From: Macrostomum lignano
Lineage: Eukaryota
NCBI GenBank assembly: GCA_002269645.1
Contig: NIVC01000027.1
Location: forward strand, 310,001-374,000
Direction of reading: 5' to 3'
Length of the DNA stretch: 64,000 nucleotides
The position numbers were made by a program, and so were the translations under genes. The notes beneath the pieces are model-generated. The model made no database searches and was not told the origin of the DNA. It was given only the letters and a program-made list of their open reading frames with translations. Of the stretch, positions 6,001 to 64,000 are shown piece by piece. Each line of letters begins with the position of its first letter. Position 1 is the stretch's first letter.

Positions 6001-9000
6001 ATGACGCAGAGCCCGCTACTCTCAGCATCTCTAACTAGCCCTGTCGCTGTCAATATATAGAATTAAATGGAGAGCTTAGAAATGACACTCAATGGGGCTG
6101 ATATACACAGGTGCAAAGATGACGCAGAGCCCGCTACTCTCAGCATCTCTAACTAGCCCTGTCGCTGTCAATATATAGAATTAAATGGAGAGCTTAGAAA
6201 TGACACTCAATGGGGCTGATATACACAGGTGCAAAGATGACGCAGAGCCCGCTACTCTCAGCATCTCTAACTAGCCCTGTCGCTGTCAATATATAGAATT
6301 AAATGGAGAGCTTAGAAATGACACTCAATGGGGCTGATATACACAGGTGCAAAGATGACGCAGAGCCCGCTACTCTCAGCATCTCTAACTAGCCCTGTCG
6401 CTGTCAATATATAGAATTAAATGGAGAGCTTAGAAATGACACTCAATGGGGCTGATATACACAGGTGCAAAGATGACGCAGAGCCCGCTACTCTCAGCAT
6501 CTCTAACTAGCCCTGTCGCTGTCAATATATAGAATTAAATGGAGAGCTTAGAAATGACACTCAATGGGGCTGATATACACAGGTGCAAAGATGACGCAGA
6601 GCCCGCTACTCTCAGCATCTCTAACTAGCCCTGTCGCTGTCAATATATAGAATTAAATGGAGAGCTTAGAAATGACACTCAATGGGGCTGATATACACAG
6701 GTGCAAAGATGACGCAGAGCCCGCTACTCTCAGCATCTCTAACTAGCCCTGTCGCTGTCAATATATAGAATTAAATGGAGAGCTTAGAAATGACACTCAA
6801 TGGGGCTGATATACACAGGTGCAAAGATGACGCAGAGCCCGCTACTCTCAGCATCTCTAACTAGCCCTGTCGCTGTCAATATATAGAATTAAATGGAGAG
6901 CTTAGAAATGACACTCAATGGGGCTGATATACACAGGTGCAAAGATGACGCAGAGCCCGCTACTCTCAGCATCTCTAACTAGCCCTGTCGCTGTCAATAT
7001 ATAGAATTAAATGGAGAGCTTAGAAATGACACTCAATGGGGCTGATATACACAGGTGCAAAGATGACGCAGAGCCCGCTACTCTCAGCATCTCTAACTAG
7101 CCCTGTCGCTGTCAATATATAGAATTAAATGGAGAGCTTAGAAATGACACTCAATGGGGCTGATATACACAGGTGCAAAGATGACGCAGAGCCCGCTACT
7201 CTCAGCATCTCTAACTAGCCCTGTCGCTGTCAATATATAGAATTAAATGGAGAGCTTAGAAATGACACTCAATGGGGCTGATATACACAGGTGCAAAGAT
7301 GACGCAGAGCCCGCTACTCTCAGCATCTCTAACTAGCCCTGTCGCTGTCAATATATAGAATTAAATGGAGAGCTTAGAAATGACACTCAATGGGGCTGAT
7401 ATACACAGGTGCAAAGATGACGCAGAGCCCGCTACTCTCAGCATCTCTAACTAGCCCTGTCGCTGTCAATATATAGAATTAAATGGAGAGCTTAGAAATG
7501 ACACTCAATGGGGCTGATATACACAGGTGCAAAGATGACGCAGAGCCCGCTACTCTCAGCATCTCTAACTAGCCCTGTCGCTGTCAATATATAGAATTAA
7601 ATGGAGAGCTTAGAAATGACACTCAATGGGGCTGATATACACAGGTGCAAAGATGACGCAGAGCCCGCTACTCTCAGCATCTCTAACTAGCCCTGTCGCT
7701 GTCAATATATAGAATTAAATGGAGAGCTTAGAAATGACACTCAATGGGGCTGATATACACAGGTGCAAAGATGACGCAGAGCCCGCTACTCTCAGCATCT
7801 CTAACTAGCCCTGTCGCTGTCAATATATAGAATTAAATGGAGAGCTTAGAAATGACACTCAATGGGGCTGATATACACAGGTGCAAAGATGACGCAGAGC
7901 CCGCTACTCTCAGCATCTCTAACTAGCCCTGTCGCTGTCAATATATAGAATTAAATGGAGAGCTTAGAAATGACACTCAATGGGGCTGATATACACAGGT
8001 GCAAAGATGACGCAGAGCCCGCTACTCTCAGCATCTCTAACTAGCCCTGTCGCTGTCAATATATAGAATTAAATGGAGAGCTTAGAAATGACACTCAATG
8101 GGGCTGATATACACAGGTGCAAAGATGACGCAGAGCCCGCTACTCTCAGCATCTCTAACTAGCCCTGTCGCTGTCAATATATAGAATTAAATGGAGAGCT
8201 TAGAAATGACACTCAATGGGGCTGATATACACAGGTGCAAAGATGACGCAGAGCCCGCTACTCTCAGCATCTCTAACTAGCCCTGTCGCTGTCAATATAT
8301 AGAATTAAATGGAGAGCTTAGAAATGACACTCAATGGGGCTGATATACACAGGTGCAAAGATGACGCAGAGCCCGCTACTCTCAGCATCTCTAACTAGCC
8401 CTGTCGCTGTCAATATATAGAATTAAATGGAGAGCTTAGAAATGACACTCAATGGGGCTGATATACACAGGTGCAAAGATGACGCAGAGCCCGCTACTCT
8501 CAGCATCTCTAACTAGCCCTGTCGCTGTCAATATATAGAATTAAATGGAGAGCTTAGAAATGACACTCAATGGGGCTGATATACACAGGTGCAAAGATGA
8601 CGCAGAGCCCGCTACTCTCAGCATCTCTAACTAGCCCTGTCGCTGTCAATATATAGAATTAAATGGAGAGCTTAGAAATGACACTCAATGGGGCTGATAT
8701 ACACAGGTGCAAAGATGACGCAGAGCCCGCTACTCTCAGCATCTCTAACTAGCCCTGTCGCTGTCAATATATAGAATTAAATGGAGAGCTTAGAAATGAC
8801 ACTCAATGGGGCTGATATACACAGGTGCAAAGATGACGCAGAGCCCGCTACTCTCAGCATCTCTAACTAGCCCTGTCGCTGTCAATATATAGAATTAAAT
8901 GGAGAGCTTAGAAATGACACTCAATGGGGCTGATATACACAGGTGCAAAGATGACGCAGAGCCCGCTACTCTCAGCATCTCTAACTAGCCCTGTCGCTGT

Positions 9001-11071
9001 CAATATATAGAATTAAATGGAGAGCTTAGAAATGACACTCAATGGGGCTGATATACACAGGTGCAAAGATGACGCAGAGCCCGCTACTCTCAGCATCTCT
9101 AACTAGCCCTGTCGCTGTCAATATATAGAATTAAATGGAGAGCTTAGAAATGACACTCAATGGGGCTGATATACACAGGTGCAAAGATGACGCAGAGCCC
9201 GCTACTCTCAGCATCTCTAACTAGCCCTGTCGCTGTCAATATATAGAATTAAATGGAGAGCTTAGAAATGACACTCAATGGGGCTGATATACACAGGTGC
9301 AAAGATGACGCAGAGCCCGCTACTCTCAGCATCTCTAACTAGCCCTGTCGCTGTCAATATATAGAATTAAATGGAGAGCTTAGAAATGACACTCAATGGG
9401 GCTGATATACACAGGTGCAAAGATGACGCAGAGCCCGCTACTCTCAGCATCTCTAACTAGCCCTGTCGCTGTCAATATATAGAATTAAATGGAGAGCTTA
9501 GAAATGACACTCAATGGGGCTGATATACACAGGTGCAAAGATGACGCAGAGCCCGCTACTCTCAGCATCTCTAACTAGCCCTGTCGCTGTCAATATATAG
9601 AATTAAATGGAGAGCTTAGAAATGACACTCAATGGGGCTGATATACACAGGTGCAAAGATGACGCAGAGCCCGCTACTCTCAGCATCTCTAACTAGCCCT
9701 GTCGCTGTCAATATATAGAATTAAATGGAGAGCTTAGAAATGACACTCAATGGGGCTGATATACACAGGTGCAAAGATGACGCAGAGCCCGCTACTCTCA
9801 GCATCTCTAACTAGCCCTGTCGCTGTCAATATATAGAATTAAATGGAGAGCTTAGAAATGACACTCAATGGGGCTGATATACACAGGTGCAAAGATGACG
9901 CAGAGCCCGCTACTCTCAGCATCTCTAACTAGCCCTGTCGCTGTCAATATATAGAATTAAATGGAGAGCTTAGAAATGACACTCAATGGGGCTGATATAC
10001 ACAGGTGCAAAGATGACGCAGAGCCCGCTACTCTCAGCATCTCTAACTAGCCCTGTCGCTGTCAATATATAGAATTAAATGGAGAGCTTAGAAATGACAC
10101 TCAATGGGGCTGATATACACAGGTGCAAAGATGACGCAGAGCCCGCTACTCTCAGCATCTCTAACTAGCCCTGTCGCTGTCAATATATAGAATTAAATGG
10201 AGAGCTTAGAAATGACACTCAATGGGGCTGATATACACAGGTGCAAAGATGACGCAGAGCCCGCTACTCTCAGCATCTCTAACTAGCCCTGTCGCTGTCA
10301 ATATATAGAATTAAATGGAGAGCTTAGAAATGACACTCAATGGGGCTGATATACACAGGTGCAAAGATGACGCAGAGCCCGCTACTCTCAGCATCTCTAA
10401 CTAGCCCTGTCGCTGTCAATATATAGAATTAAATGGAGAGCTTAGAAATGACACTCAATGGGGCTGATATACACAGGTGCAAAGATGACGCAGAGCCCGC
10501 TACTCTCAGCATCTCTAACTAGCCCTGTCGCTGTCAATATATAGAATTAAATGGAGAGCTTAGAAATGACACTCAATGGGGCTGATATACACAGGTGCAA
10601 AGATGACGCAGAGCCGCTACTCTCAGCATCTCTAACTAGCCCTGTCGCTGTCAATATATAGAATTAAATGGAGAGCTTAGAAATGACACTCAATGGGGCT
10701 GATATACACAGGTGCAAAGATGACGCAGAGCCCGCTACTCTCAGCATCTCTAACTAGCCCTGTCGCTGTCAATATATAGAATTAAATGGAGAGCTTAGAA
10801 ATGACACTCAATGGGGCTGATATACACAGGTGCAAAGATGACGCAGAGCCGCTACTCTCAGCATCTCTAACTAGCCCTGTCGCTGTCAATATATAGAATT
10901 AAATGGAGAGCTTAGAAATGACACTCAATGGGGCTGATATACACAGGTGCAAAGATGACGCAGAGCCCGCTACTCTCAGCATCTCTAACTAGCCCTGTCG
11001 CTGTCAATATATAGAATTAAATGGAGAGCTTAGAAATGACACTCAATGGGGCTGATATACGCAGGTGCAAA
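1..11071. repeat. 118-bp satellite array, ~94 copies
   Basis: Unit ctctcagcatctctaactagccctgtcgctgtcaatatatagaattaaatggagagcttagaaatgacactcaatggggctgatatacacaggtgcaaagatgacgcagagcccgcta. The phase recurs exactly at 3541 and 7081 (30 x 118). The only variants I saw are 1-bp deletions in the CCC run near 10615 and 10850 and an A>G in the last partial copy. Confidence 0.98.
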
Positions 11072-14574: not shown

Positions 14575-17500
14575 TTAAGGACTGAACACACCAGGTAGTA
14601 ATAAAATTAAATGTCCAATGAAAAAACATAATATTGAATAGTGAAGCGTTGAAGCGTCTATTGAATAGAGCAGGTTTAGCGGAAGCATGAACACCTGCAG
14701 AAAGGCATGCCAGCTGTAGTCAGACATGCTTCTGTCAGCTTCGGTCGAGGTGACAACCGGATACAGCAGGTTGAAGAAGAAAACTCCGAACGAATAAAAT
14801 ATGATCACAATAATGACAGAGAAAGGAATCAAGTCCTGGATGATCAAAGTCTTGAGCATGGACACCACCGGACCGATTCGCTCTGAGTAGCCGAGGAAGG
14901 CGACAGATCGAAACCCCCAGAGCAGGAACGCGGTGCTCAGCACCATCTGGCAGGCGTAAGCGCTGTACGGAGTCGGCTGGGTCCACGTTCGATTAGCTGA
15001 CGCACCGCGGAAGAGTGCCTGGTAGGCCGTTGAGTTGGTATTGATGCACATCGAGGAGCTGTCCACCCCTGTGACATAGTTGAAGATGCAGCCCCACATG
15101 GCAAGCTTCAGCAGCAGCCCGGCCCACATCAATATCAAGGCGAAACAGTCGAGTAGGTTGAGCACATCCTTGAAGTTCACGGGGAATTTTTTTTATCTCA
15201 ATGCCACATATTTTGGCACGTCTTCTTTTGCTTCGAGTGCAGATGTCCAGAACTTCTTGCAAAGTAAATGAAAGAAGATAAGCTATCATGACTAAATCTG
15301 CAGGCCAGAACTTGAAAGTCGTAGGCAAATCCATTATCCTAGGCTTAACCGAGAATTTGCGTTTGCAGCAATTTTCGCGATAGCGGGAATAGGCGTTGCT
15401 CCACTCGGATTCAATCAGATTATGTAGGCAGTCGCTGGCAAACAGATCGCCATCGCCCGCTTCCTCAATCATTTCCATTAGGGTGTAGGGTTTAGTCGAG
15501 CCATTTTCCATTCGGCACGGAAACTTGGGACCAGTCGTCTCCCAATCATCGTCCCATAGCGAGCCAGTTATGTACTGGAACAAAAGTTGTCTTTCTTCCT
15601 CGTCAGCGTTTGAATACATTGCATCAAGAGCGTTCATGGCTACACTGATAACTTTGCTGTACAGTAGCTGAAGCTGTTCGGACTTGCCCTCCGATTTAGC
15701 GATTCTCGGCTGCAGCTGAATGAGCAGATTTATGCATGCAGGAATCAGGTTGAACTGCCGAGTGAGCACAAGATCGATAAGAATGTCTATCTTGTCAAGG
15801 CAGACAGCTGCATCGATTATTGATAATTCTGAAGTTTCGTTGAATGGAATTGTTAAAAACCTATCACAAACATTTCCTAGTTCATATTCATTGCTTATGT
15901 CAAAAAGCCGTTCTCTGTAAAATTCCGGAAAGTCTGCCTCGGTCTCTGCTGTGACCCGGCACAGTTTCAGTGCGCACCTGTAGATCTCTGGGGAGTCGGA
16001 CTTAATTGCTTTTATCAAGATACTCATACCGCTTCTTTCATTCGACTTGTTCTGCTCTTTGGCACTAAGATCTTCTGACGCAATTGACGCCTCAATAGAT
16101 GCCAGACACTCTTTAGCTTTTGTTCGACTTGGGAGCCTGAGAGCTCCAGTTCTTTTGTCTAGTAAATGAATGAAGTTAACGTCGGTAAGCGAACTCTGTC
16201 GTGTGATTTCTCTAGATCTTTCGCTAGCATTGTCGTCATAGTTGCTGTCGGCGTCTTCATCGCAATCTTCTTCATCAGGAAATACTGCATCAATGAGTTC
16301 ATCTAGTTTCTCGCTAGCGTCGGCAAAGTCAACACAAGACAAACCGGAGTCTGTTTCGTCAGACAATCGAAGACCCTGACTCATTAGGTATCTAATATTC
16401 TCTTGATTACCCGCCTTGCAGGCAAAGTGTAAGGCCGTTGCACCACTGCTGCGGTGCGCTTGAGTCACTGGGAGACGCAGTAGATCCTGAACTTGTTGAT
16501 TCGACAGTTTAGCGAGAGGTTCAGCAAGCTGCTTCAGGTCGTGCCTTGCAGCAAATACATGAACCGCATGCAAACCAGTTGGGCTAATGAGAAAGCTTCG
16601 AAGCATTTCTTGGCAGTGCTCGCTTAGTGCGGTGTACTGAGCCAGTTTCTTTGAGATGATGCGACTGTCCGCTGTGGCGGTGGCCAGGCAATTCTGTCCG
16701 AGATTTTTCTCTGCAAATTGATCGACACCAGCCTTGACGAGACTTTCTGCCGCCTTCCAGAACGCTTCCACATAATCTACGTCTCTGTTGGTCTGGAACA
16801 AGGAATGAAGCAGAGTATTCCCGTCGTTATCAACGTAATTAAGTGTCCATTCAGTTTTCAATCTCTTAATTTCTCCAAGTAGCGCGTCGATATTTCCATA
16901 GTGCTTCACAGCAAAGTGCAAAACGGACTGCTTTGAGCTGTTCCGCCAGGCAAGAAAATTCCAGCTTCCAAGATGATCTGCCAGGATCTGCAGCACCTTG
17001 CTACTCTCATTATTTGCGGCATCGTGTGCCATTGTATTTTTTTCTTTGTCTTGAAGCTTGACCAAACGTTCCAAATCTGAGCTTTCAATGGTCTCTAGAA
17101 GCGTCTTCAGAGTTGCAGGACTGCACATTTCTAAGGCTATGTGAAGCACGGTATTGCCAAAGTTGTTGTGCCATGTAAAATATGGATGTGGGGTTCGCGG
17201 TGGATGTTTTAATTTGTCTTGGTAGTCAAGAAATGTGGCCAGCGACATTTTATTAGAAGCTGCCTTGTGTAGCACAGTGTGCCTTCAAAGTCCTTCAGAT
17301 CTTCAAGACTTCTCTTATTGTTTAGTTTATACAGAAGCCACTTAGCGGTTTCTTCATTGCAATCAGTGGCAGCAATATGGAGTGGAGTCACCTTATCCGA
17401 CCCTAGAGAAGTCAAGTACTTCCAACTTGCGTCGCTTTCTAAAGCATCGATCGCTTTTTGAAGAAATAGTTTTCTCGGGTCACTGCTAATTGCCGCCCAG

Positions 17501-18260
17501 TGGATGCAAGTGTACTTGCGATTACTCTGCACCTCCGCACATCTTTTATGGCGTCTCGTAGTGCATTCAGACCGCGCCAATCTTCATCAAACAGTTGTTC
17601 AATGCCTTTCTCGGCATAACGCATAAAAATGTCGAGCACAGTGACATTGTCCTTCCTCCGCCACATTAGACAGTCTGGCACAGACTCGATGACCGTCTTG
17701 AAAATATCGCAACAATTTTCATTTCTAGCCGCGTAGTGCAAACAGGTTGCACCGTTTACATCAGTCATCTGAAGTTTCGAGTCAGACAGAGGCATCCCGA
17801 AGTTTGCCTTGAACTGCTTTTCACTGTGATGCCTGGCCGAAAGATGCATGGGCGTGCGACCAGATTTATCTGCTGCGTTTGACAATCCGCTGTAGTTTTG
17901 TAGGGCAATCAACTGTTGAAAAAGTTGCTCACCTTCTGCATCATTGGCCGCATAGTGCACGGCAGTTCTCTCAGTGTCTTTGACTTGGTTGATTTCGCTG
18001 TATTCTTCATCAAATTCTTTTTTATTTTCGGTGAGATGCTTTAAGGCTTTTTCAAATTCAAGATTTTTAGAATAATAGAAAAGCTTTTTATGCAATTCTT
18101 TAATTTTGGTCTTTCGATTGTCATCTTCTACTTGGTTACCATCGGTGGCGTCATTTATTTGATATACAGTTTTAGCGGTAGTACACGTCACGACATCGCG
18201 GACTTCTTCCTGTTCAGCTTCAATATCGTCCAATTCAACTCCCTCCAAATGGATGGACAT
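14575..18260 (-). pseudogene. Disrupted, intronless ankyrin-repeat TRP cation channel with a TRPM-like transmembrane region
   Basis: Four overlapping ORFs (17439-18308, 17209-17580, 14993-17275, 14575-15180) join into one protein; likely ATG at 18260 (MSIHLEG). At least 12 ankyrin-like repeats (RTAVHYAA, RTPMHLSA, ATCLHYAA, VTPLHIAA, NTVLHIAL, ATALHFAC and others). Membrane part: pre-S1 FASDCLHNLIESEW, S2 DLVMIAYLLSFTLQEV, S3 NLLDCFALILMW, S4-S5 RIGPVVSMLKTLIIQDLIPF...FGVFFFNLLYP, pore helix WHAFLQVFMLP. Frameshifts near 17530, 17280 and 15190; no S6. Confidence 0.85.
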
Positions 18261-18599
18261 CTCGTCGTCAACCAGCCCTATAGTGGTTTGAGAGCAAATT
18301 TGAAACAATTAACTTATCCACTACATGAATATACTAAGAATGGTTTGTCTAACTATAACTTACTAACTACAAGGTACATGTACATGTAACTAATACCTTT
18401 CCGCAAGAAAAAAAAACAAAAAAGCAAACAAAAAAAATCGATACGCGTTTGGCGGACAGCGGATTGTCGTTTGGCGGAAATATATAGCAATGTCCTACCA
18501 AAAGGAACAAGAAAGTTTTAGGATCTGCTGACGGCTAAGGGTTAGTTAGCTACGACTTCGCGGGGTTTTGCAGCGTTGGCTTGTACGCTATCGCACATG

Positions 18600-24328: not shown

Positions 24329-53607
<29,279 letters not shown>

Positions 53608-54579
53608 GTTTTTATGATCTTAGATGGCTTCTCAAGAAAAACTTACATAAATATTGAGATTAAATAGAAATTTTGCTTGCTAAATGGTGACTAATTTAGT
53701 ATTTTCCGTACTGTAGGCCTACAACTACGATGCTTCTGCTTATTTTGAAATAATTAGCAACGACAAACACAAGAAAATTAAGTCAAGGACAGGGCAATAG
53801 AAAAGTAAATTTCTTGTGAAAAGCTATTTAGAGATAAGTTTAATATGAATCATTTGATTCAAAGGCTGACTCATGACTAAATTGTGCAATCTGATTTTAC
53901 TCAATATAAAGCGCTTGCGTTGCCGCACGACGCTAAAACTGATTCAACTTGGGCTTCTTCTACAGCTCTCGCCCGAGGTCAGTCTTCTCTTCCGCAAATT
54001 AAATTTCAATATTCATTGTTCCTGTAAAATATTGGTTCTTAAATGCGTAGCTTAACAAAAAATAATTACTAAATTACATATCTTGACTAAAGAAAAGAAG
54101 TATAAAGCATTCCATAATTTATAGAAAAATAATGCTTATAAAAAATGTGTGTAAACTTTTATTTGGATTTTTTTAAAAGTGCACCTATAACTGTATGCGG
54201 AAGTAAACGCCCCTTACAATCTTGGGCCAGGCCAAATGTATGAAAAAGTCGATTCTAGGAAGCACTTGACTCAAAGCATTCAGTATGTATACATACATAA
54301 AAATCAGTACTAGCTATAGTCGATTTAAGCCCAAAAGCTACGGACTTAATCCGAATTATATATATATGCGAATGCATGTATGTACATGTATAGCCGTCCA
54401 AATTACGTGTACGTAATGTACATATGTAGTGCATGTAGCAAGGGCGCAATGGATTTTCTTTAAGTGGTTTACAGAACAAAACAGAAAATGCTAAACGAAA
54501 CTCCCTATATTATTTTCAGGCATCATTATTTTAGTACTGATTTTTTGGTGCCCGCGAATATAAAACGGGAGTACGTCGT

Positions 54580-55200
54580 TTGCTTGCGGGAAGTTTGCTT
54601 GCCGAACTTTGCTTGCAGGAACTTTGCCTGCCGAACTTTGCTATTTCATCTGGAAATTTGCTTGCCGAACTTTGGGTATCCGAGCGTTGGGTATCCTTAC
54701 GAGTCATGATATGTAGCAATTCATAGATCGGTGGCACATTCATTTGCAAAAAATCTATTCTGTAAAGTTCGCTGCCTAAATCATTCGATATGTGTATTGT
54801 TCGAAATTGTGTCCAATTTTTTGTTGAAAATCTATATTCCCAGTAAAAAACTAAATTATTCCGTTTCTGTGTTAGGGCTTATCAAATCCGCCATATCCTC
54901 ATGCAAAATCATAACACTATAGGCGACTTCCATGAATCTTAGAAAATGAAAATTAGAAACACGCAAGAGCTCAAAAAGGTTCTTTAAGGTTCCGCAAGAA
55001 AAATTTGGCTGGCAAATCTCGGCAAGCAAAATTTCGGCAAGCAAAGTTCCTGCAAGCAAAGTTCCGCAAGCAAAGTTCGGCAAGCAGACTTCCGCAAGCG
55101 AAATTCCGCAAGCAAAGTTCGGAAAGCAAAGTTCGGCAAGCAAAGTTCCTGCAAGCGAAATTCCGCAAGCAAAGTTCGGCAAGCAAAGTTCGGCAAGCAG
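54580..55200. mobile_element. Foldback-like remnant with inverted arms made of ~13-bp subrepeats
   Basis: Left arm (54580-54675) ttgcttgccgaactttgc repeats; right arm (55005-55200) gcaaagttcggcaagcaa repeats, the reverse complement. Confidence 0.65.
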
Positions 55201-55575: not shown

Positions 55576-56218
55576 TTTCTCCAGATCGTGGAGCAGCGCG
55601 GAGCAGCGCGGAGCCTCGCGTCGTCCTGCCTGGCCTCGTCCGGAGCTGCCTCTCTGCCTCCGAGCTCTCCTCTCTCATTTCAGGGTTTTCAGGTTTTCAG
55701 GTTCGAGCAGCATCTACTAGAACGATCAACTGTCGAGACATTTTCAGATTTGCCTTTGCTCCGAGAGACTTCGTTATTTTATTTCAGGTGAGGGATAGAC
55801 AACTCTGCCGACGCGTCGAGTCCGCACACCAAGGTGGCAGCGACCCTACCAAGTCTAAGGCTAACGTTTTAGGTTCTTTTTCAGGCAAATCGATAGGTAG
55901 TACAACGGTACTATCTAGCTACTTCCGGAGCAGCGAGTTGTACTTTAGGAACATCTTCAAGAACTCGGCAAGGAGCAACACAATATTTTATTCAGCACGT
56001 GTATTGGTTTAGGCACAGTAAATATAAACATAATGTACCGGGATACTGACCAGCAGTTCCTCTCATCTAGTGTCTCAAAGGCTTAGTACAACATACATGT
56101 AGGGACTATAGCACATCGTTACTAGAGGATAGGGACTTTAGCTTCTATCCGGCCCTCGGGTTCTTTGAAACTTCATTGTAACAATCAGACCTGCTCAAGG
56201 TCTGTGTCTTATAGCGCT

Positions 56219-56450
56219 CTTCTCTCTTATCTCTCTCTCTTCTCTCCTCTCCTTTCTCTCCTCTCCTCTATCTTCTCTTCTCTCTTCTCCCTTCTCACCT
56301 CTCCTCTACATTCTCTCCTGATCTCCTCTTCCTTTCCCTTCTCTCATCTACCTTCTCTCCTCTCTCCTCTCCCTTCTCCTCTCTTTTCTCTACTTCTCTC
56401 TCCCCTCCTCTCCTCTTCTCTATTCCGTCTCCTCTCTCCCCTCCTCTAGC
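56219..56450. repeat. CT-rich low-complexity tract
   Basis: Direct reading. Confidence 0.85.
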
Positions 56451-56882
56451 TAGATTCTTCATCTGGCTGTTCAGGTAAAAAAGTTTTCCAACCCTTGGCA
56501 TATAGAGATATGGGTATAGAAAAATCCCGGGATGGTTTTCGTCTCAACCCAACCGTATCAAAAACAATTGCGTGATAAAAAAGAAATAGCGATCAGTTTG
56601 GATAACCCTCCAATGAACGTCAAAGCTTTCATAAATATGAAACAATAAACCATTTTTGAGCCATCTCTGTGGTGTTCTCTTTCAAAACAACGAATTTCTA
56701 TGAAATTTTGTTTGAAATATTTAATTCCCTAACTGTAGCAAGCAAGAGCTGGTATTATAGTCGAGAATTTTCAGCTATTGATTTTAATAATTTCAGATGC
56801 GATATTTTGCGTGTTACTATGCGATCGACTGTTAAGGTGAATGCGAAACTGTCGCTGGATGCTACAGGCTCTTGCTCACGCC

Positions 56883-58115
56883 TCAGCCAACATAGGCACG
56901 TCGGACTGCGAGACGCATTAGCGGATCAATGTACACCTCAGCCAGCTGCCTAGACAAAGTGTTGTGCTCGCAAATCCATTCACCATGGGCTCGTTGATAA
57001 AATAGCCTTCTGTTTGCCAGGTATTGCAGTCTATAAAATGCAAATGATTGAAAGCAGCTGGCTACTTTGATAGGCGGCAGGTGGCTTTTTGCTGACAGGT
57101 TGGCCATGACGTGATTGTAGTGAACTGTAGGCAGCTTGCGTTCCTCTCCAAACTGCTTGTTATTGTAAAATGTCAGCGAGCAGGGGTCCTGCAGCTCATT
57201 GGACTCGCTAAGCGTGTTAGCGCACAGCTGATGCAGCTGAGGTCTGCTCGCAAAGTAATAGAGTCCTTGAGCAATGTTGTCCAGGTTCCATCTGGCGGCA
57301 ATTAGAAGAGGTATTTGAGCATTCAGATGCATGCTTAATAATCATTCGAACTCCCAATCGGCCAGATGTTCAGAGCTCTGCACATAATGGGGCGATAAAC
57401 TTTTGACTCTGACTATAGGGATTCTTTTCACACTCCTTTCCTACTACTCTTTAGTAGGCGATGCCTATAATAACGCTCGAAAGTAGTGCCAAAAATTATT
57501 ATTTAATGCAACTAACTGATGCATAGTTTAAACAAAAACAGCGTTGTACTAGCATTGGTCAGAATAGACTTTACAACGCTGATACCTGAACGCTGGCAGG
57601 CCGCATCATCCACGCCGAAGAGAACTGCTTGTAGCCGAAGCAGGTGCTGCTGCTACCTCTTCAGGCACTCTATTGAATAGGACTGGCGCGCACTTGGAGC
57701 TTCGTCAACTGCCTGCTAGCTTGATGCTATATAGCGTCCCAGATTCGGTTGCATCCTACCCTAGAGACCCACCCTATAACGATGATTTGTTGTATTAGAC
57801 CTAAAGCTGACAGAGTGTTAAATTGTCGTTGTCTTAAGACAATTAATTGAATCTCTTATTAGTAATGTTGAGTCTTCTTAATCAATAAAAGTCATCAAAT
57901 AAACTAGAAATTCACCTTTTCCAGGCAACATCAGCATCTAGCACTAGCAACAGAGTGGGGCCCATCGGTGCCAGATGCCTATAAGTGTAGTCCAGATACT
58001 GGTTGCGCAGGGCGGACATGATGAGGCCTCTGTCAATCTCTTCCGCTACGGTGCGCTTCACCAACAATCCGGGTTGATGACTGCGACGGGTGCTGGCGTA
58101 TCTGCAGCAGTGCAA
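56883..58115 (-). pseudogene. Degenerate coding-like remnant, unidentified
   Basis: Protein-like minus-strand frames (56883-57332, ~57590-57740, 57912-58115) interrupted by stops, with donor-like ends (tcag|gtatc, aaag|gtgaa). No family recognised. Confidence 0.25.
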
Positions 58116-58157
58116 TTGAGGATGAGGTAATATGTGCGCTGTAACGGTCAGTTCAAT

Positions 58158-58380
58158 GGGGGGCCGTAGCCCAGCGGTAGCGCAGCTGCTCTGGTGTGCC
58201 GCGACCCAGGCTCGATTCCAAGTGCAGCCACATTAATTTGGGGCTGAATTAGAATTTCGGCTTGGCTCGCTTGTGCAATTAACGGCCTTGAGAACCAACC
58301 CCCCAAGGCGCAGTGAAGTGTACATGCCTAACAATTGATAAAGTTAGGGCCGCTGTACACTCCTGTGTGAGTGTGTGCCT
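58158..58380 (+). mobile_element. tRNA-derived SINE, most complete copy in the window
   Basis: Head ggggccgtagcccagcggtagcgc (A-box-like) plus ggctcgattcc (B-box-like); body shared with 47555-47760. Confidence 0.82.
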
Positions 58381-59267
58381 GCGTAACGTATCCGCGCGCT
58401 TGTATGCCTGCTCAGGGGAGTCGGCGGAATGGGCAGTAATGCCTCTCGCCGGTTGTGAGCCTATGTCGCTTAAAGTGCGCCAGGGTGCACACAACCCCCC
58501 TGCCTCTAATAAAAAAACGGTCAGTTCAGGTCGATCAAATACTCGTATTCGGTGTTTTTGAGCACTGGAGATTGTCAAGAGACGTCAAACTGTGAGCTGC
58601 GGGTGTCAAATCAAAGATGATACCCGGGGAAAGACCAACGGTTGGTGTTGGCGTCACTGATGCTGAGGCGCTTCAAATAGGCGCATCGCCCCAAACGAAA
58701 ACTAAGCATATGACGAGCAAGGTTACGTCTATGGAACAATGTAAAGCAGAGATCGTGTAGGTTCAGTGATAAATAGAATAAGTCACAGCACACACTTGGC
58801 ATTCAACAAGCACGGTTCAGGTGAGTTGACGCGGCCGCAGCCCAGCAGGCGCACCGTCGGGTCGCGTTTGCCAATGCTGTGCAGCAGTACTCGCGTGGTG
58901 TCAATGGAGTCGCTTTCCACAGCTACGATCCACGATCTGTGGAGTACGATCGAGTTAGTGACATCTGTACTAGGCAAAATACAAAAACATTTACATTAAA
59001 TTACATTTTGTCATGTGTGCAACCAAGGGCACAGCTTCTACAATTACGTGTTGCATCCGAGGGAAGCGTATAGTATGTACAGTTTGTACGGAGTACAACT
59101 TTAACACAGATGGGACCGCAAGCTGGCACCCTGTATTTCGAATCCCAGCTCAAAGTTGTTACTGAGAAACAACTTACAAAGTTGTTGTGAGAATTACAGA
59201 ATTACTGTGAGAATTACTCGGAATCATAGTACAGTAAACAGTCCAACTAGAGTCCAGATGTAGAGAG

Positions 59268-59425
59268 AGAGCAGCTTAGCGGAAAAACGCGTCTGAACCT
59301 TTGCGCCACAGCCCCTGGTTCGATTCTCCGTAAGTAGCCACATGCATTTGGAACTTGCGCACAAAATTGACCGGTGGGTTGTTGTGCGATTCATAGTTAG
59401 TCATGAAGGTCAACCCCCAAGGCAA
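59268..59425 (+). mobile_element. Diverged SINE copy interrupted by the Maverick insertion
   Basis: B-box cctggttcgattc; ends at the conserved SINE motif caacccccaaggca, after which SINE similarity stops abruptly. Confidence 0.6.
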
Positions 59426-59487
59426 AGAGAGTAGAAGGCATGAGGGGGCTTTTGGGACAAAATTTTTCACGTCCCCCAGAATCCACC

Positions 59488-59686
59488 TAAATCCATCCAT
59501 ATTATCCCCGACAGAATCAGAAAAAAGGGGGGGTCGCACTCGCTCACAAAACGTCCTCCATAATCCCATTAAATCCATCCATATTATCCCTGACAGAATC
59601 ATGAAAAAGGGGAGGGGCCGCACTTGCTCTGAAAACTTCGAACATAATCCTATTAAATCCATCCATATTATCCCCGACAGAATCAG
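59488..59686. repeat. Subterminal repeats of the putative TIR (3 x taaatccatccatattatcccYgacagaatca, ~82-85-bp period)
   Basis: Direct reading. Confidence 0.85.
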
Positions 59687-59881
59687 ACAGTGGACACCTG
59701 TTATGCTCACTGACACTGACATCATCCACCGACATCCACCCATAACATTTCTAAAACAATCAGAAAATAATCTGCATTCTTCTCCCCACATTCAATCCGC
59801 AACGTGCTACCACATCCCTAAGACTTTAAATCATCAGCGCAGGGGTCCTCACCCTTTAAAAAAATTAAATTCTCAATAAAA

Positions 59882-60121
59882 ATGTTTCCAGTTGTCTCTC
59901 CAGGTTCTTATTACAAAGCGCACGAGCCTAATTACAAGAGTAAGTACCGATGCAAACTTGAATGCAGCGAGTACATGAGAAAATATTGGCCCAACGTTGA
60001 TATCAATGTCCCTAATATTAATCTAGCTCTCCAAAGACATTGGTTTCATAAGTATGGAGTAACCTATGTAAAAGATTATGACAGCTACTATAACTTTGCA
60101 GAAATCATTAGGCAATTGTGA
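59882..60121 (+). CDS. Small element ORF, possibly an RNase T2-like derivative
   Basis: 79 aa, aaaaATG context; MRKYWPNV...PN...RHWFHKYG resembles the T2 CAS II region. Confidence 0.45.
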   Translation: MFPVVSPGSYYKAHEPNYKSKYRCKLECSEYMRKYWPNVDINVPNINLALQRHWFHKYGVTYVKDYDSYYNFAEIIRQL

Positions 60122-60706
60122 TTTCTTACATTCTCTCAATGATTAACGTCAATACAAACTCTTCACCGTTGAAATCAACGCCCATCCATCTTCAGTCTCA
60201 AACTGTAGCACAATCTCGTGAATCTCCTTATTACTCAATACAACTCTTTTCACTGGATTTGGTTTCTCTACCACCATCTGTCCTCCAGCAACAGAGGTTA
60301 GGGTTAGGAAAAAACTACTTATAGTAAATGGTGAGTGTTTTATTGCGTCAAATATCTGTCAGCTGACGGAAATTTGCAGAAACGCGGCAAATTTCCGTCA
60401 GCTAGTCAGAATTCTGACAGAAAGGAATGCAATCCTTTGTGTGGCTGCCCTCACCCTTTGTGCACCAAATTTCATTCCTCCGTACAATCTCTATTATTCT
60501 CAAAAGGGAACTTCCCTTCTACTCCCTTCCCTTCTCTTCCTTCTCTTCCTTCTCTCCCTTCCCTTCCTCCCTTCTAAACACTATAGGAACAAATTTCTCT
60601 TCCCTTCTCAAAAGGGGAAGCTATGTTTCTGCAGCCATATATATTGGGTAGATTTTTTAATCACTCAGCTTTCGCCGCGCTTCCTCACAAAAAAATTCAC
60701 TAGAAA

Positions 60707-61138
60707 ATGTCTGGCCTTGCCACAGTTAGAGCTAGGAGAGCTACGGCGCAGATGACGGCTGTGGTTTATAGAAATGTCTTAACAACCCTAAAGCCCGAAA
60801 CTTTATTCAATCAAATGGACGACCAAGTTCTCGTAGACGCTTCAGAAGAAGTGCTAAAGAAGACTGAAAGGTTTATCCAAAATTTAAGACGATTTAAACA
60901 ACAACTAGCACGCCAAAGAAACTATGACGAGCAAGAAGCAGTCGCTCTGCAGACTCGCAACATCCGCAACATTGAGTTGCCACAGCCACCGCCACCATAC
61001 CAAGAAGTTCAAGCTCAAGCTCAAGCTCAACCTGAAGCTCAACCTGAAGCTCAAGCTCAAGCTCAACCTCAAGCTCAACCTGAAGCTCAAGCTCAACCTC
61101 AAGGCAACCAACGGTCGCGAATTCCCCGGCGAATCTAA
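60707..61138 (+). CDS. Element ORF, 143 aa; probable coiled coil + PPPPY motif + QAQPEA repeats
   Basis: gaaaATG context; biased, protein-like composition. Confidence 0.7.
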   Translation: MSGLATVRARRATAQMTAVVYRNVLTTLKPETLFNQMDDQVLVDASEEVLKKTERFIQNLRRFKQQLARQRNYDEQEAVALQTRNIRNIELPQPPPPYQEVQAQAQAQPEAQPEAQAQAQPQAQPEAQAQPQGNQRSRIPRRI

Positions 61139-61263
61139 AATAGCGCGCGACAAAAAATTAATAAACTGACTTATTATTCTACTTGTGTGTGGCGTGTTTT
61201 CACACAAAAAATACAAATACCATCTTTTTGAACACATGTTGACTCACTTGAGTCACTTTTACC

Positions 61264-61455
61264 ATGTTTAGATTGAAAATATTTTTGTTGTCAATTTTTT
61301 TCATTATTGAAGCAGAATATAAAAAATATTATAGATATGAAGGAGAAGGAATTCTAGATTTTTTAACTTCTGCAGAAAATTTAGTTAAAGATAATCTAAT
61401 AGCTCAAGCTGGTTCAGGTGTTGGATCAATTGCAACACTATTAAAGGGTCAATAG
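61264..61455 (+). CDS. Small element ORF, 63 aa; hydrophobic N-terminus and GEGILDFL motif
   Basis: ATG start; lies between other element ORFs. Confidence 0.45.
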   Translation: MFRLKIFLLSIFFIIEAEYKKYYRYEGEGILDFLTSAENLVKDNLIAQAGSGVGSIATLLKGQ

Positions 61456-61709
61456 ATGCTGCAAGATCTGCAAACGGTGCAAATGGTTGTTGTGAACCGC
61501 TATGTTTTAATAACTGTCGGATTTTTTTTTGCTCAACAGAAACTGTCGGAAAACTGCCTCAAATACAGACAAACTCAACCTGTCTGTATTTGACGATGTG
61601 TGCATTGACGATGTACGCAGTCTCTATTTGGCGTGTGCAATGCAAATCCCCCTCCCGGTTCTCTCTTCTCCAAAACAGCCGCCAATCCAGCTGAATTTTC
61701 TTGCTTGAC

Positions 61710-62159
61710 TCATTCTGCTCTCTCAACCCCCAGCTCTTTCAGCAGTCTTCCTAATTCTTTACTTGGAGCGTGCAATGCAAAGCCCGCCCCCAAACAGCCG
61801 CCGACCCCCAACCCCAACTTTGTCTTACCAAAAATAACAGCTTTAACTAGCTTCCGAGCGATCGATTCCTTCCACCCGCTTGAAGCCCCTATATTGTCTA
61901 GTCTTCTAAGCATTTCTTTGTCCCAGCGATTCTTCTCCTCAGGAAAATCTCTATATTTAACATCGTGCCACATGCAGACAGAGTCTAGCTCGTTCACAGG
62001 CTCGTGCCCAGGATTTGGATTATTGTTTTTATCCAACTGAATTTCAAGTGGATTCAAAGGCCCGCAATATTTATAGCCGGGAAGTGTCCAGCCTTTGTTT
62101 GGATGAGGAAGCTTTTCTATCAGTCCATGTGAATCTAACTTACCACCAGAGCGTTGCAT
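61710..62159 (-). CDS. Parvovirus VP1u-type phospholipase A2 (PLA2X-like)
   Basis: GWTLPGYKYCGPLN (Ca-binding-loop-like), EPVNELDSVCMWHDVKY (catalytic HD..Y) and RWDKEM (second Asp) match parvoviral LPGYKYLGPGN...EPVN..D..A..HD..Y...AD. Open 149-aa frame. Confidence 0.88.
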   Translation of the reverse strand: MQRSGGKLDSHGLIEKLPHPNKGWTLPGYKYCGPLNPLEIQLDKNNNPNPGHEPVNELDSVCMWHDVKYRDFPEEKNRWDKEMLRRLDNIGASSGWKESIARKLVKAVIFGKTKLGLGVGGCLGAGFALHAPSKELGRLLKELGVERAE

Positions 62160-62189
62160 TATTTTATTTTAAATTTTCTTTTTAAAAAA

Positions 62190-63170
62190 ATGACAGATCA
62201 GAAACTTAAAAAACTCAACTACAGCGACAAAGGATTCTTTGTAGGAAAAAATGCAGTCACCAAACTCGCAGAACTAAGTGAGGAACCAAAAGGTAAAGTA
62301 GAAAAGTGGCTCTCTAAGCAAGCAGTCTACCAAGTCTATTTCCCACCAGTAAAATTTACAAGACCTCACTTTAGCATCTATAAACCTAATGAAGCGCACC
62401 AAGCAGATCTTTTGTTTCTCCCCAACGACTCAGGCTACAAGTATGCTCTTACAATTACAGACGTTGCCTCCAGATATAAGGAAGCGAGACCGCTTAAGAC
62501 GAAGAAGTCAGAAGCAGTTGCAGCCGCCCTCCAAGATATTTATAAAAACTCTCCGCTCACATACCCCCAAATCTTTATGACCGACCCGGGTAAAGAATTC
62601 TTTGGGGCAGTGAAATCACTTCTACATAAGTATGACGCAGAACTGAGCTCCACAGAGATCAGGCTTTTGTGGAAAGATTCAATCTAACTCTAGCCAAGAG
62701 GCTATTCACTAAGCAGACAGCTGAAGAGCTGAAAATAAAAAAGTGGTCAGTACTATTCAAAATAGACAGACCGCCTCCCCACTGTTATAGAGCAACTGAA
62801 CAATGAAGTCACACGCATGACTGGATTGAAACCGTCCCATGCAATTAAACAAGACACTGTCGAACTTAAATCATCTCATAGAACAGACACCTCGAACTAC
62901 CCTAAGCTTCCAGGAGTTGAATCACCATACATACTGACAAACTCTGAGTTTCTACGCTTTTTATATCTACCTGGAGAGCTAGAGAAGGACACTAAAAGAA
63001 GAGCTACAGATCCATACTTCAGCCTTGATGTACATAAAATAGACAGACATTTTACATCCGACTCCGGTGACTATTACTTTTTATCTCAGGCTTTTAACCC
63101 TAAATCCCCCACGCGGTCATTCACTAGAGCTGAACTCCTAGTGATACCAGCTGACACAGAAATTAATTAA
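62190..63170 (+). pseudogene. Polinton-type retroviral-like (rve, DDE) integrase with two frameshifts
   Basis: ATG at 62190. HQADLL, GYKYALTITDVASRY, MTDPGKEF, then a shifted frame HRDQAFVERFNLTLAKRLF, then VIEQLNNEVTRMTGLKP and RRATDPYFS. Shifts near 62640 and 62740-62785. Confidence 0.9.
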
Positions 63171-63186
63171 AATATTAAAATAAAAA

Positions 63187-63633
63187 ATGACAAAGATTGA
63201 AACCAGAACCATCAATAAACTCAATAAAATCATTGAATCAAAGAAACCAGGTCTTATATCAATTAAAGGTATCAAAGTAAAAATCGATCCCACGCAGCAA
63301 ATAGTTCAGTGTAATGAACAAAGACACAGCATCACAGATGAAAAGTCAGGAGGAATCCTACCATTAGCAGCTCTTATCCCAATCATTGCAGGCGCTGTAA
63401 GTGCCGCAGGTGGTGTAGCTGGAGGTGTAGCAACTGCTGTTAAAGCTGGTAATGATAGAGCCCACCAGCTTGAATTGCAAAAGATTGCAAGAGACAAAGG
63501 TATAACAATTAAGGCAGGAGAGGGCTGCCCCGATCGTGATGATTGTGAGCATGAAAATTCTGTAAGCAAGTCTGACATTGTCAAAGCCATCATGACACTC
63601 CACAATGCTGGGTTTACAATAATGCGCATGTGA
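63187..63633 (+). CDS. Adenovirus pX/mu-like core protein homolog
   Basis: SGGILPLAALIPIIAGAVSAAGGVAGGVATAV resembles adenoviral pX GGILPLLIPLIAAAIGAVPGIASVA (recalled); aaaaaATG context. Confidence 0.7.
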   Translation: MTKIETRTINKLNKIIESKKPGLISIKGIKVKIDPTQQIVQCNEQRHSITDEKSGGILPLAALIPIIAGAVSAAGGVAGGVATAVKAGNDRAHQLELQKIARDKGITIKAGEGCPDRDDCEHENSVSKSDIVKAIMTLHNAGFTIMRM

Positions 63634-63756
63634 TGAGGTTTAAAATCCCACTTTATCCAGCTTCATGAACCTAACGCTACTTATAGGATGTAGAAACAGT
63701 TCAACTTTTCTACCAGGGTGGTCACCCTCAATTTTTTTTATATTTTAGAGAAAAAA

Positions 63757-64000
63757 ATGCCAAAAGCCAATCCAGCAAAAGATTTAGTCAACAAATATTT
63801 TTCAAAAGGCGTCTCATTTCAAGACAAAAGTAATTTACTAAGAGAATCATGTAAACAAAAGTTTAACACCGACCCTGGTCACCTGGGAAGCTATGAAAAA
63901 CAGTTGGAAATCATCAATCAATTAGAATCCAACCAGTATGCGCCTATAAAAAATCCTGCAAAGGAACACCAAGAGAGGAGTCGCAACTTAGTTAACAAAT
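63757..64000 (+). CDS. Element ORF, partial (MPKANPAKDLVNKYFSKG...), runs off the window
   Basis: aaaaaaATG; open to the window end; not in the ORF track. Confidence 0.6.
   Translation, partial: MPKANPAKDLVNKYFSKGVSFQDKSNLLRESCKQKFNTDPGHLGSYEKQLEIINQLESNQYAPIKNPAKEHQERSRNLVNK

What the first reader, a model, noticed from the sequence alone, without database searches (positions are those of the whole stretch)
59426..64000. Endogenous Polinton/adintovirus with a virion entry toolkit (PLA2 + pX-like + PPxY protein) clustered around the integrase
Next to the rve integrase are an open-frame parvovirus-type PLA2 (an endosomal-escape enzyme in parvoviruses), an adenovirus pX/mu-like core protein and a PPxY-containing protein. 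These make sense for a particle-forming virus rather than a plain transposon. PLA2-like genes are known in adintoviruses, but this gene order and cargo in this host may be an undescribed lineage. The integrase is frameshifted while the neighbouring ORFs are open.
Basis: partly seen in the sequence, partly recalled or inferred. Interest (0 to 1): 0.8.

Follow-up and report, generated by a model that had tools for sequence, protein, structure and literature searches.

The report
Decayed Maverick-Polinton provirus, left end
This is the broken left end of a Maverick-Polinton, a well-known kind of integrating DNA virus of animals, carrying genes (phospholipase, core-like protein, part of a capsid vertex protein, integrase) already described in that group.

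Summary
Pfam confirms a parvovirus-type PLA2 (61710-62159, -), an rve integrase (62190-63170, +) and an Adeno_PX-like ORF (63187-63633, +). A full-length relative's model matches mavirus, adenovirus and Sputnik pentons. A probable (AG)3 left end lies at 59426, followed by 82-84 bp repeats. The integrase has no H2C2 or GPY/F, which argues against Ginger or LTR elements. So this is a Maverick-Polinton (adintovirus) provirus, probably group 2, and this copy is dead: integrase with two frame changes and a stop, penton truncated and frameshifted. The 'entry toolkit' is overstated. PLA2 and pX-like genes are published, both fused (PLA2X) and separate. The PPxY ORF has no homolog and no amphipathic helix, and the motif is common (38 of 131 fetched proteins). 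pPolB, major capsid, ATPase, protease, right end and copy number could not be checked. Verdict: new member of a known kind, from a sub-lineage whose closest relatives are unnamed sequences.

The parts
59273..59423 (+). Host dispersed repeat (SINE-like; label inferred) directly left of the element; probable insertion site
   Evidence: Local alignment to copies at 58168-58409 and 47538-47787, score 71 against a shuffle maximum of 48; clean identity stops near 59423, but a gapped match runs on to 59442
59426..59431 (+). Probable left terminus, 5'-(AG)3 end motif
   Evidence: AGAGAG; listed as a Maverick end motif in PMC8097293; 5 occurrences in 56000-64000; the right end and target-site duplication lie outside the window
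59439..59690 (+). Subterminal direct repeats, 82-84 bp period, about 3 copies; probably inside the terminal inverted repeat (inferred)
   Evidence: Tandem Repeats Finder period 84, 2.4 copies; families D4 and D6
59882..60121 (+). 79-aa ORF, function not identified
   Evidence: A-rich ATG; no Pfam or PHROGs hit
60126..60301 (-). Penton (minor capsid protein) remnant: C-terminal ~56 of ~278 residues, one frame change near 60185, 5' part missing
   Evidence: 12 of 14 family members match here by tblastn, 51-95% identity; model of full-length relative P0136 matches mavirus penton, Foldseek E 5.4e-7, VIA Z 9.3, rmsd 6.1, 211 aligned
60707..61138 (+). 143-aa orphan ORF: helical N-terminal part, one PPPY, Gln/Ala/Pro repeat, basic tail; role not shown
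   Evidence: Open frame, A-rich start and AATAAA downstream; no Pfam, PHROGs or Atlas match
61710..62159 (-). Stand-alone parvovirus-type phospholipase A2, open, 149 aa, with the YCGP loop and the HDxxY site
   Evidence: PF08398 E 6e-14; 11 of 11 relatives stand-alone, 139-180 aa, none with pX; Y31 C32 G33 P34 H65 D66 Y69 D80 invariant in 12 of 12; fold hits are entomopoxvirus PLA2, parvovirus VP1 and rice PLA2
62190..63170 (+). Polinton-type rve integrase pseudogene: two frame changes and one in-frame stop; the third catalytic residue lies in the out-of-frame segment
   Evidence: PF00665; 148 relatives, closest 61% over 325 aa; frame map; tree
63187..63633 (+). Adenovirus pX/mu-like protein, open, 148 aa: basic N-terminus, then a hydrophobic segment
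   Evidence: PF05829 E 4.5e-7, residues 52-84; Kyte-Doolittle 19-residue maximum 2.08 at residue 57; Atlas neighbours in animal and Preplasmiviricota clusters, weak recognition
63757..64000 (+). ORF running off the window, not identified
   Evidence: A-rich ATG; no Pfam or PHROGs hit on 81 aa

Best explanation
The stretch is the left ~4.6 kb of an endogenous Maverick-Polinton (adintovirus; class Polintoviricetes), probably group 2. It is inserted about 5.8 kb upstream of a host LRR+PDZ gene, in or next to a dispersed repeat. In the active lineage the rve integrase inserts the linear genome through its terminal repeats, the penton forms the capsid vertices, the pX-like protein is a virion core protein, and the stand-alone PLA2 most likely cuts endosomal phospholipids during entry, as in parvoviruses. 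Shown here: the gene identities and the lesions. Inferred from known families: all of the roles. This copy has decayed and cannot integrate or build a vertex by itself. The short open ORFs are compatible with simply not having been hit yet. The PPxY ORF is an orphan lying where the 5' part of the penton gene should be.
For: Penton remnant. PLA2 and pX families, both known from this group. Integrase is a single ~326-aa gene with no Cys in its first 148 residues; 0 of 120 relatives show H2C2 or GP[YF], and PMC2836005 says Polinton integrases lack the zinc finger. (AG)3 end and subterminal repeats. One relative, P0043, carries PLA2 and rve in a single ORF. Two pairs of hits share source and contig length (PLA2/penton 1892; PLA2/integrase 1948), jitter-null P(>=2) = 0.002: indirect evidence that these genes are neighbours in relatives.
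Against: pPolB or helicase, major capsid, ATPase, protease, right terminal repeat and target-site duplication are not in the window. The penton call rests on a relative's model of moderate quality (pLDDT 62, 13 sequences); no penton-family member has a relevant Pfam or PDB sequence hit. The integrase tree is a quick tree without Ginger, LTR or named Polinton references. The left junction is ambiguous by about 20 bases. The breaks could be assembly errors; no reads were available. The open ORFs avoid all lesions with post-hoc P 0.02-0.06, which leaves slight room for selection.
Confidence: 0.88

Rival explanations
1. The element is an active or recently active provirus with a dedicated three-part entry module: PLA2 lyses the membrane, pX assists like melittin, and the PPxY protein recruits Nedd4 like adenovirus protein VI.
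For: All three ORFs are open with A-rich starts. PPxY arises in 2% of composition shuffles and PPPY in 0.15%. Adenovirus protein VI uses PPxY in entry (PMC7564661). Starrett et al. speculate on PLA2/pX synergy.
Against: Integrase and penton are broken. The PPxY ORF has no match to any family at E<1, no Atlas hit and no amphipathic helix above chance (210 of 500 shuffles as high). PPxY occurs in 38 of 131 fetched integrase and PLA2 proteins and 9 times in the window's long frames. Each short ORF has a 55-72% chance of being lesion-free at the pooled rate.
Confidence: 0.08
2. The host has kept or domesticated the PLA2 or pX genes while the rest of the provirus decays.
For: All 4 detected point lesions fall in integrase or penton (post-hoc P 0.02; 0.06 if the two compensating shifts are one event). 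PLA2 active-site residues are intact.
Against: The test was chosen after seeing the data. Short ORFs are often spared by chance. Expression, orthology and dN/dS could not be examined.
Confidence: 0.05
3. It is a Ginger/TDD DNA transposon or an LTR-element fragment that picked up viral genes.
For: The rve domain is shared by these groups (PMC2836005). No reference-rooted tree could be made.
Against: No H2C2 or GPY/F. The end reads AGAGAG, not TGTNR. No reverse transcriptase or RNase H hit among the 15 ORFs scanned. Penton, PLA2 and pX lie alongside.
Confidence: 0.02

Closest known systems
Alpha adintoviruses / group 2 Maverick-Polintons (PMC8502044; bioRxiv 10.64898/2026.06.19.733378)
   Same: rve integrase, single-jelly-roll penton, parvovirus-type PLA2 and pX-like domain in an integrated animal element; phospholipase is described as common in group 2
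   Different: PLA2 and pX are separate genes on opposite strands either side of the integrase, not the PLA2X fusion; the integrase has no chromodomain; this copy is decayed; replication gene and major capsid were not seen
Entomopoxvirus-associated PLVs AHEV_PLV1, AHEV_PLV2, CBEV_PLV1 (PMC11296320; PLV1 elements in the mavpol2 capsid clade)
   Same: Separate stand-alone PLA2 (140-179 aa) and separate L2 mu/pX-like ORF (e.g. AJP61529.1 and AJP61523.1), plus a minor capsid gene
   Different: They have no rve integrase (none, or a tyrosine recombinase) and were recovered from occlusion bodies; the element here has rve and is a germline fossil
Vertebrate Mavericks (PMC8097293)
   Same: (AG)3 end motif; integrase and minor capsid genes; most copies degraded by stops and frameshifts
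   Different: The word phospholipase does not occur in that paper's main text
Parvovirus VP1 PLA2 (AAV and others)
   Same: Calcium-loop and HD motifs; weak sequence hits to AAV VP1 and fold hits
   Different: A free 149-aa protein, not an N-terminal extension of a capsid protein

Membership tests
Maverick-Polinton / adintovirus (Polintoviricetes) | Retrovirus-like rve integrase without an N-terminal zinc finger | tested here: met
   PF00665; no Cys in the first 148 aa; 0 of 120 relatives with H2C2; criterion from PMC2836005. The gene is broken in this copy.
Maverick-Polinton / adintovirus (Polintoviricetes) | Single-jelly-roll minor capsid protein (penton) | tested here: met
   Remnant at 60126-60301; the family's model matches mavirus, adenovirus and Sputnik pentons. 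Only the C-terminal fifth is present.
Maverick-Polinton / adintovirus (Polintoviricetes) | Double-jelly-roll major capsid, packaging ATPase, cysteine protease | not testable with these tools
   The window ends 4.6 kb into the element; no related loci were obtained
Maverick-Polinton / adintovirus (Polintoviricetes) | Protein-primed PolB (or helicase/primase in group 2) | not testable with these tools
   Outside the window; the 81 aa of the last ORF gave no hit
Maverick-Polinton / adintovirus (Polintoviricetes) | Terminal inverted repeats with (AG)3 or (AGT)2 ends and a 6-bp target-site duplication | tested here: inconclusive
   AGAGAG at 59426 beside a repeat boundary and before 84-bp repeats; the right end is not in the window
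Group 2 / Alpha-class virion module | Parvovirus-type PLA2 gene | tested here: met
   PF08398 E 6e-14; association with group 2 / Alpha
Group 2 / Alpha-class virion module | Placement by major capsid or ATPase phylogeny | not testable with these tools
   Those genes are not in the window
PLA2X gene (Starrett 2021) | pX-like domain fused to the C-terminus of PLA2 | tested here: not met
   No PF05829 in the window PLA2 or in 11 of 11 relatives (that search covered only 81-261 aa proteins); pX is a separate ORF
Ginger1/Ginger2-TDD transposons and Gypsy LTR elements | H2C2 zinc finger; GPY/F motif (Ginger1, Gypsy); TGTNR termini | tested here: not met
Adenovirus protein VI-like entry protein (143-aa ORF) | Amphipathic membrane-lytic helix plus conserved PPxY | tested here: inconclusive
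   PPPY present; no family hit; helix moment not above shuffles; conservation untested because no homolog was found and no sequence-database search was run with this ORF

The most novel reading that the evidence does not exclude
An undescribed animal sub-lineage of group 2 Maverick-Polintons in which a stand-alone PLA2, the penton and a pX protein flank the integrase, and an orphan PPxY protein acts like adenovirus protein VI, recruiting Nedd4-family ligases during entry or egress. It would be the first late-domain entry factor proposed for a Polinton: one paper held both terms, and it only tallies motifs in virophages.
Probability: 0.08. Interest if true: 0.6.

Novelty: new member of a known kind. 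Interest (0 to 1): 0.27.

Why it matters
Modest. It adds a sub-lineage (integrase clade of 7 sequences, PLA2 family of 12, penton family of about 14, nearly all unnamed) to a known virus class. It also gives a small stand-alone viral PLA2 that is easy to assay. Virions of animal Maverick-Polintons have not been directly observed according to the papers read, but this copy is broken and does not make that question more testable. Intact sister copies in the same genome might.

Tried and rejected
Scan of bacterial and archaeal genome contigs with integrase relative P0012: 28 pattern matches, 5 confirmed, 0 loci returned, so no gene neighbourhoods of relatives were seen. The cluster look-up for the PLA2 hits could not be made. 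PDB sequence searches: integrase piece 0 hits, pX nothing meaningful, penton family nothing meaningful. PHROGs: nothing. Pfam on penton family members: only 6 weak single-member hits. Five of the 7 hits were repetitive proteins (Ig-like, Calx-beta and other repeats) and were dropped as chance. Rfam on 56000-64000: one sub-threshold miRNA match. ARAGORN: 0 tRNAs, so 'tRNA-derived' for the flanking repeat is a recalled impression only. Atlas search of the PPxY ORF: no usable hit. The careful integrase tree did not finish; the quick tree is quoted. No second copy of the left end in the window. No complex prediction was run.
Full report
Observation. Pfam gives PF08398 (parvovirus-type PLA2) for 61710-62159 (-), E 6e-14; PF00665 (rve) for the piece from 62190, E 6e-10; and PF05829 (Adeno_PX) for residues 52-84 of 63187-63633, E 4.5e-7. 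The 143-aa ORF at 60707-61138 has only sub-threshold hits. Four ATG ORFs of 140 aa or more occur against a mean of 0.02 in 200 base shuffles. All 6 element ORF starts have at least four A among the six preceding bases, against 10% of 316 flanking ATGs. The genes are real.

Integrase. A search with the first 148 aa found 148 longer relatives, of which 120 were listed and used. The closest, P0012 (326 aa), covers 62190-63164 at 61%. Ungapped frame mapping shows frame changes near 62625-62640 and 62733-62737 and an in-frame stop at 62763-62765. The two Asp residues lie in the first piece and the Glu in the out-of-frame piece, so the product from the ATG should be inactive (inference). The first 148 residues contain no Cys. 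0 of 120 relatives show an H2C2 pattern or a C-terminal GP[YF]. PMC2836005 (passages read) states that Ginger1 and Ginger2 have H2C2 and TGTNR ends and that Polinton integrases lack the finger. In a quick tree of 121 rows the window groups with P0012-P0017 at SH-aLRT 98. The only named hits are two Actinostola hypothetical proteins elsewhere in the tree, and no Ginger, LTR or named Polinton reference was included.

On the minus strand at 60126-60301 two frames looked like the end of a minor capsid protein (the resemblance was recalled, then tested). A phmmer search with a 58-aa single-frame piece gave 7 hits, of which 2 were real relatives: P0132 (95% identical over the matched part, 153 aa) and P0136 (278 aa). 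P0136 has 13 relatives. 12 of these 14 proteins match the remnant, 11 in both frames, and similarity stops near 60300, so about 80% of the gene is missing. An AlphaFold2 model of P0136 from 13 sequences (pLDDT 62) has mavirus penton as best Foldseek PDB match (E 5.4e-7), followed by adenovirus penton bases and Sputnik. Its viral-library matches include minor capsid and penton entries of giant viruses, MELD viruses, adomaviruses and adintoviruses. VIA-align gives Z 9.3 to mavirus penton (rmsd 6.1, 211 aligned), among four capsid entries at Z 8.5-10.3. Sequence-only searches found nothing. This is direct evidence of a capsid gene within the element, and of its decay.

PLA2. Eleven relatives (56-75% identity, 139-180 aa) are all stand-alone and none has a pX domain; only proteins of 81-261 aa were searched. 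Y31, C32, G33, P34, H65, D66, Y69 and D80 are invariant in 12 of 12. Their roles in calcium binding and catalysis are recalled from parvovirus work. The model (pLDDT 67) matches an entomopoxvirus PLA2 and parvovirus VP1 proteins and rice PLA2 at Z 7.7, rmsd 3.8, 93 aligned, which is a middling score. Parvovirus PLA2 frees virions from endosomes (PMC11903649, passage); the same role here is inference. P0043 carries DUF5679, PLA2 and rve in one ORF. One PLA2 hit shares source and contig length with a penton hit (1892), and another with a top-20 integrase hit (1948); a jitter null gives P(>=2) = 0.002. This suggests that the penton-PLA2-integrase neighbourhood is conserved, but the contigs themselves were not seen.

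pX and PPxY. The pX-like ORF has a basic N-terminus and a hydrophobic segment starting at residue 57. Atlas neighbours score 0.92-0.93 in mollusc, arthropod and Preplasmiviricota clusters, with recognition below the reliable level. The PPxY ORF has no family or Atlas hit; it was not searched against the large protein databases. The motif appears in 2% of composition shuffles, 9 times in the window's long frames, and in 38 of 131 fetched integrase and PLA2 proteins. Its best hydrophobic amphipathic window is matched by 210 of 500 shuffles, so it does not look like adenovirus protein VI, whose PPxY acts in entry (PMC7564661, passages). It lies on the opposite strand, where the missing 5' part of the penton gene should be.

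Ends and host. AGAGAG at 59426 matches the (AG)3 end motif of Mavericks (PMC8097293, passages). It follows a dispersed repeat with two other copies in the window (score 71 against a shuffle maximum of 48) and precedes 82-84 bp repeats. A gapped match to that repeat runs on to 59442, so the junction is probable, not proven. To the left lies a minus-strand host gene with LRR and PDZ exons; the name LAP/Scribble-type is inferred from that architecture. The host taxon was not determined.

Open versus broken genes. All four detected point lesions fall in integrase or penton (post-hoc P 0.02, or 0.06 if the two compensating shifts are one event). At the pooled rate each short ORF has a 55-72% chance of being spared. 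This is weak support at most for selection on PLA2 or pX.

Comparison with what is known. PMC8502044 (parts 1-4 of 6, abstract to discussion; supplement part 1) describes PLA2X, a PLA2-pX fusion, in Alpha adintoviruses, and only speculates on a membrane role for pX. PMC11296320 (section 5, passages and supplementary rows) lists separate PLA2 and mu/pX-like ORFs in entomopoxvirus-associated elements, two of which fall in the mavpol2 capsid clade, so the split form is in print. bioRxiv 10.64898/2026.06.19.733378 (passages and section 5) calls phospholipase common in group 2, treats adintoviruses and Mavericks as synonyms, and notes that pPolB is often replaced. PMC3671162 (passages) already labels PLA2 in its genome figure legend. 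10.1101/2023.08.22.554363 and PMC11071296 (passages) added nothing on these genes. A search for Polinton with PPxY found one paper, a motif tally in virophages. Other searches. Genome maps are figures and could not be seen; the sequence files in the Starrett supplement were not reached, and the bioRxiv supplements were closed. Whether this exact gene order has been published therefore stays open.

Verdict. A decayed left end of a Maverick-Polinton provirus, probably group 2, from a sub-lineage whose closest relatives are unnamed sequences. The virus identity is well supported. The claim of a special entry toolkit is supported only for the PLA2, and only by analogy. New member of a known kind; interest 0.27.

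Noticed in passing
window 25995-53607 (-): Multi-exon host gene with LRR exons (53446-53607, 50088-50390, 48838-49296, 38853-39767) and PDZ exons (32581-33663, 25995-26831), LAP/Scribble-type by architecture; many of its introns hold a different minisatellite each.
   Followed up: partly
window 14996-18308 (-): Long ankyrin-repeat coding stretch in three frames (763, 124 and 289 aa), apparently intronless; could be frameshifted or a pseudogene.
   Followed up: no
window 1-11071: Highly homogeneous 118-bp satellite, about 94 copies, 99% matches.
   Followed up: no
window 60347-60418: Hairpin with 17-bp perfect arms (60361-60377 / 60387-60403) just beyond the point where penton similarity stops; possibly a small inserted element linked to the truncation.
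   Followed up: no
window 61621-61656 and 61756-61791: A 36-bp stretch of the PLA2 3' end is repeated 135 bp (45 codons) further on, in the same frame, beyond the stop codon.
   Followed up: no
window 61252-61455 (+): Short frame whose Gly-rich C-terminal part recalls small adintovirus accessory proteins (recalled impression); no Pfam hit, no amphipathic signal above shuffles.
   Followed up: partly
protein P0043: A 493-aa protein with DUF5679, PLA2 and rve integrase in one reading frame; either a true fusion or run-together neighbouring genes.
   Followed up: partly
window 47538-47787, 58168-58409, 59273-59423: Three copies of a SINE-like dispersed repeat; two are 89% alike, the third is much more diverged.
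   Followed up: partly
window 54579-55199: 14-bp and 57-bp imperfect repeats just upstream of the host gene's first exon, possibly a miniature transposon.
   Followed up: no
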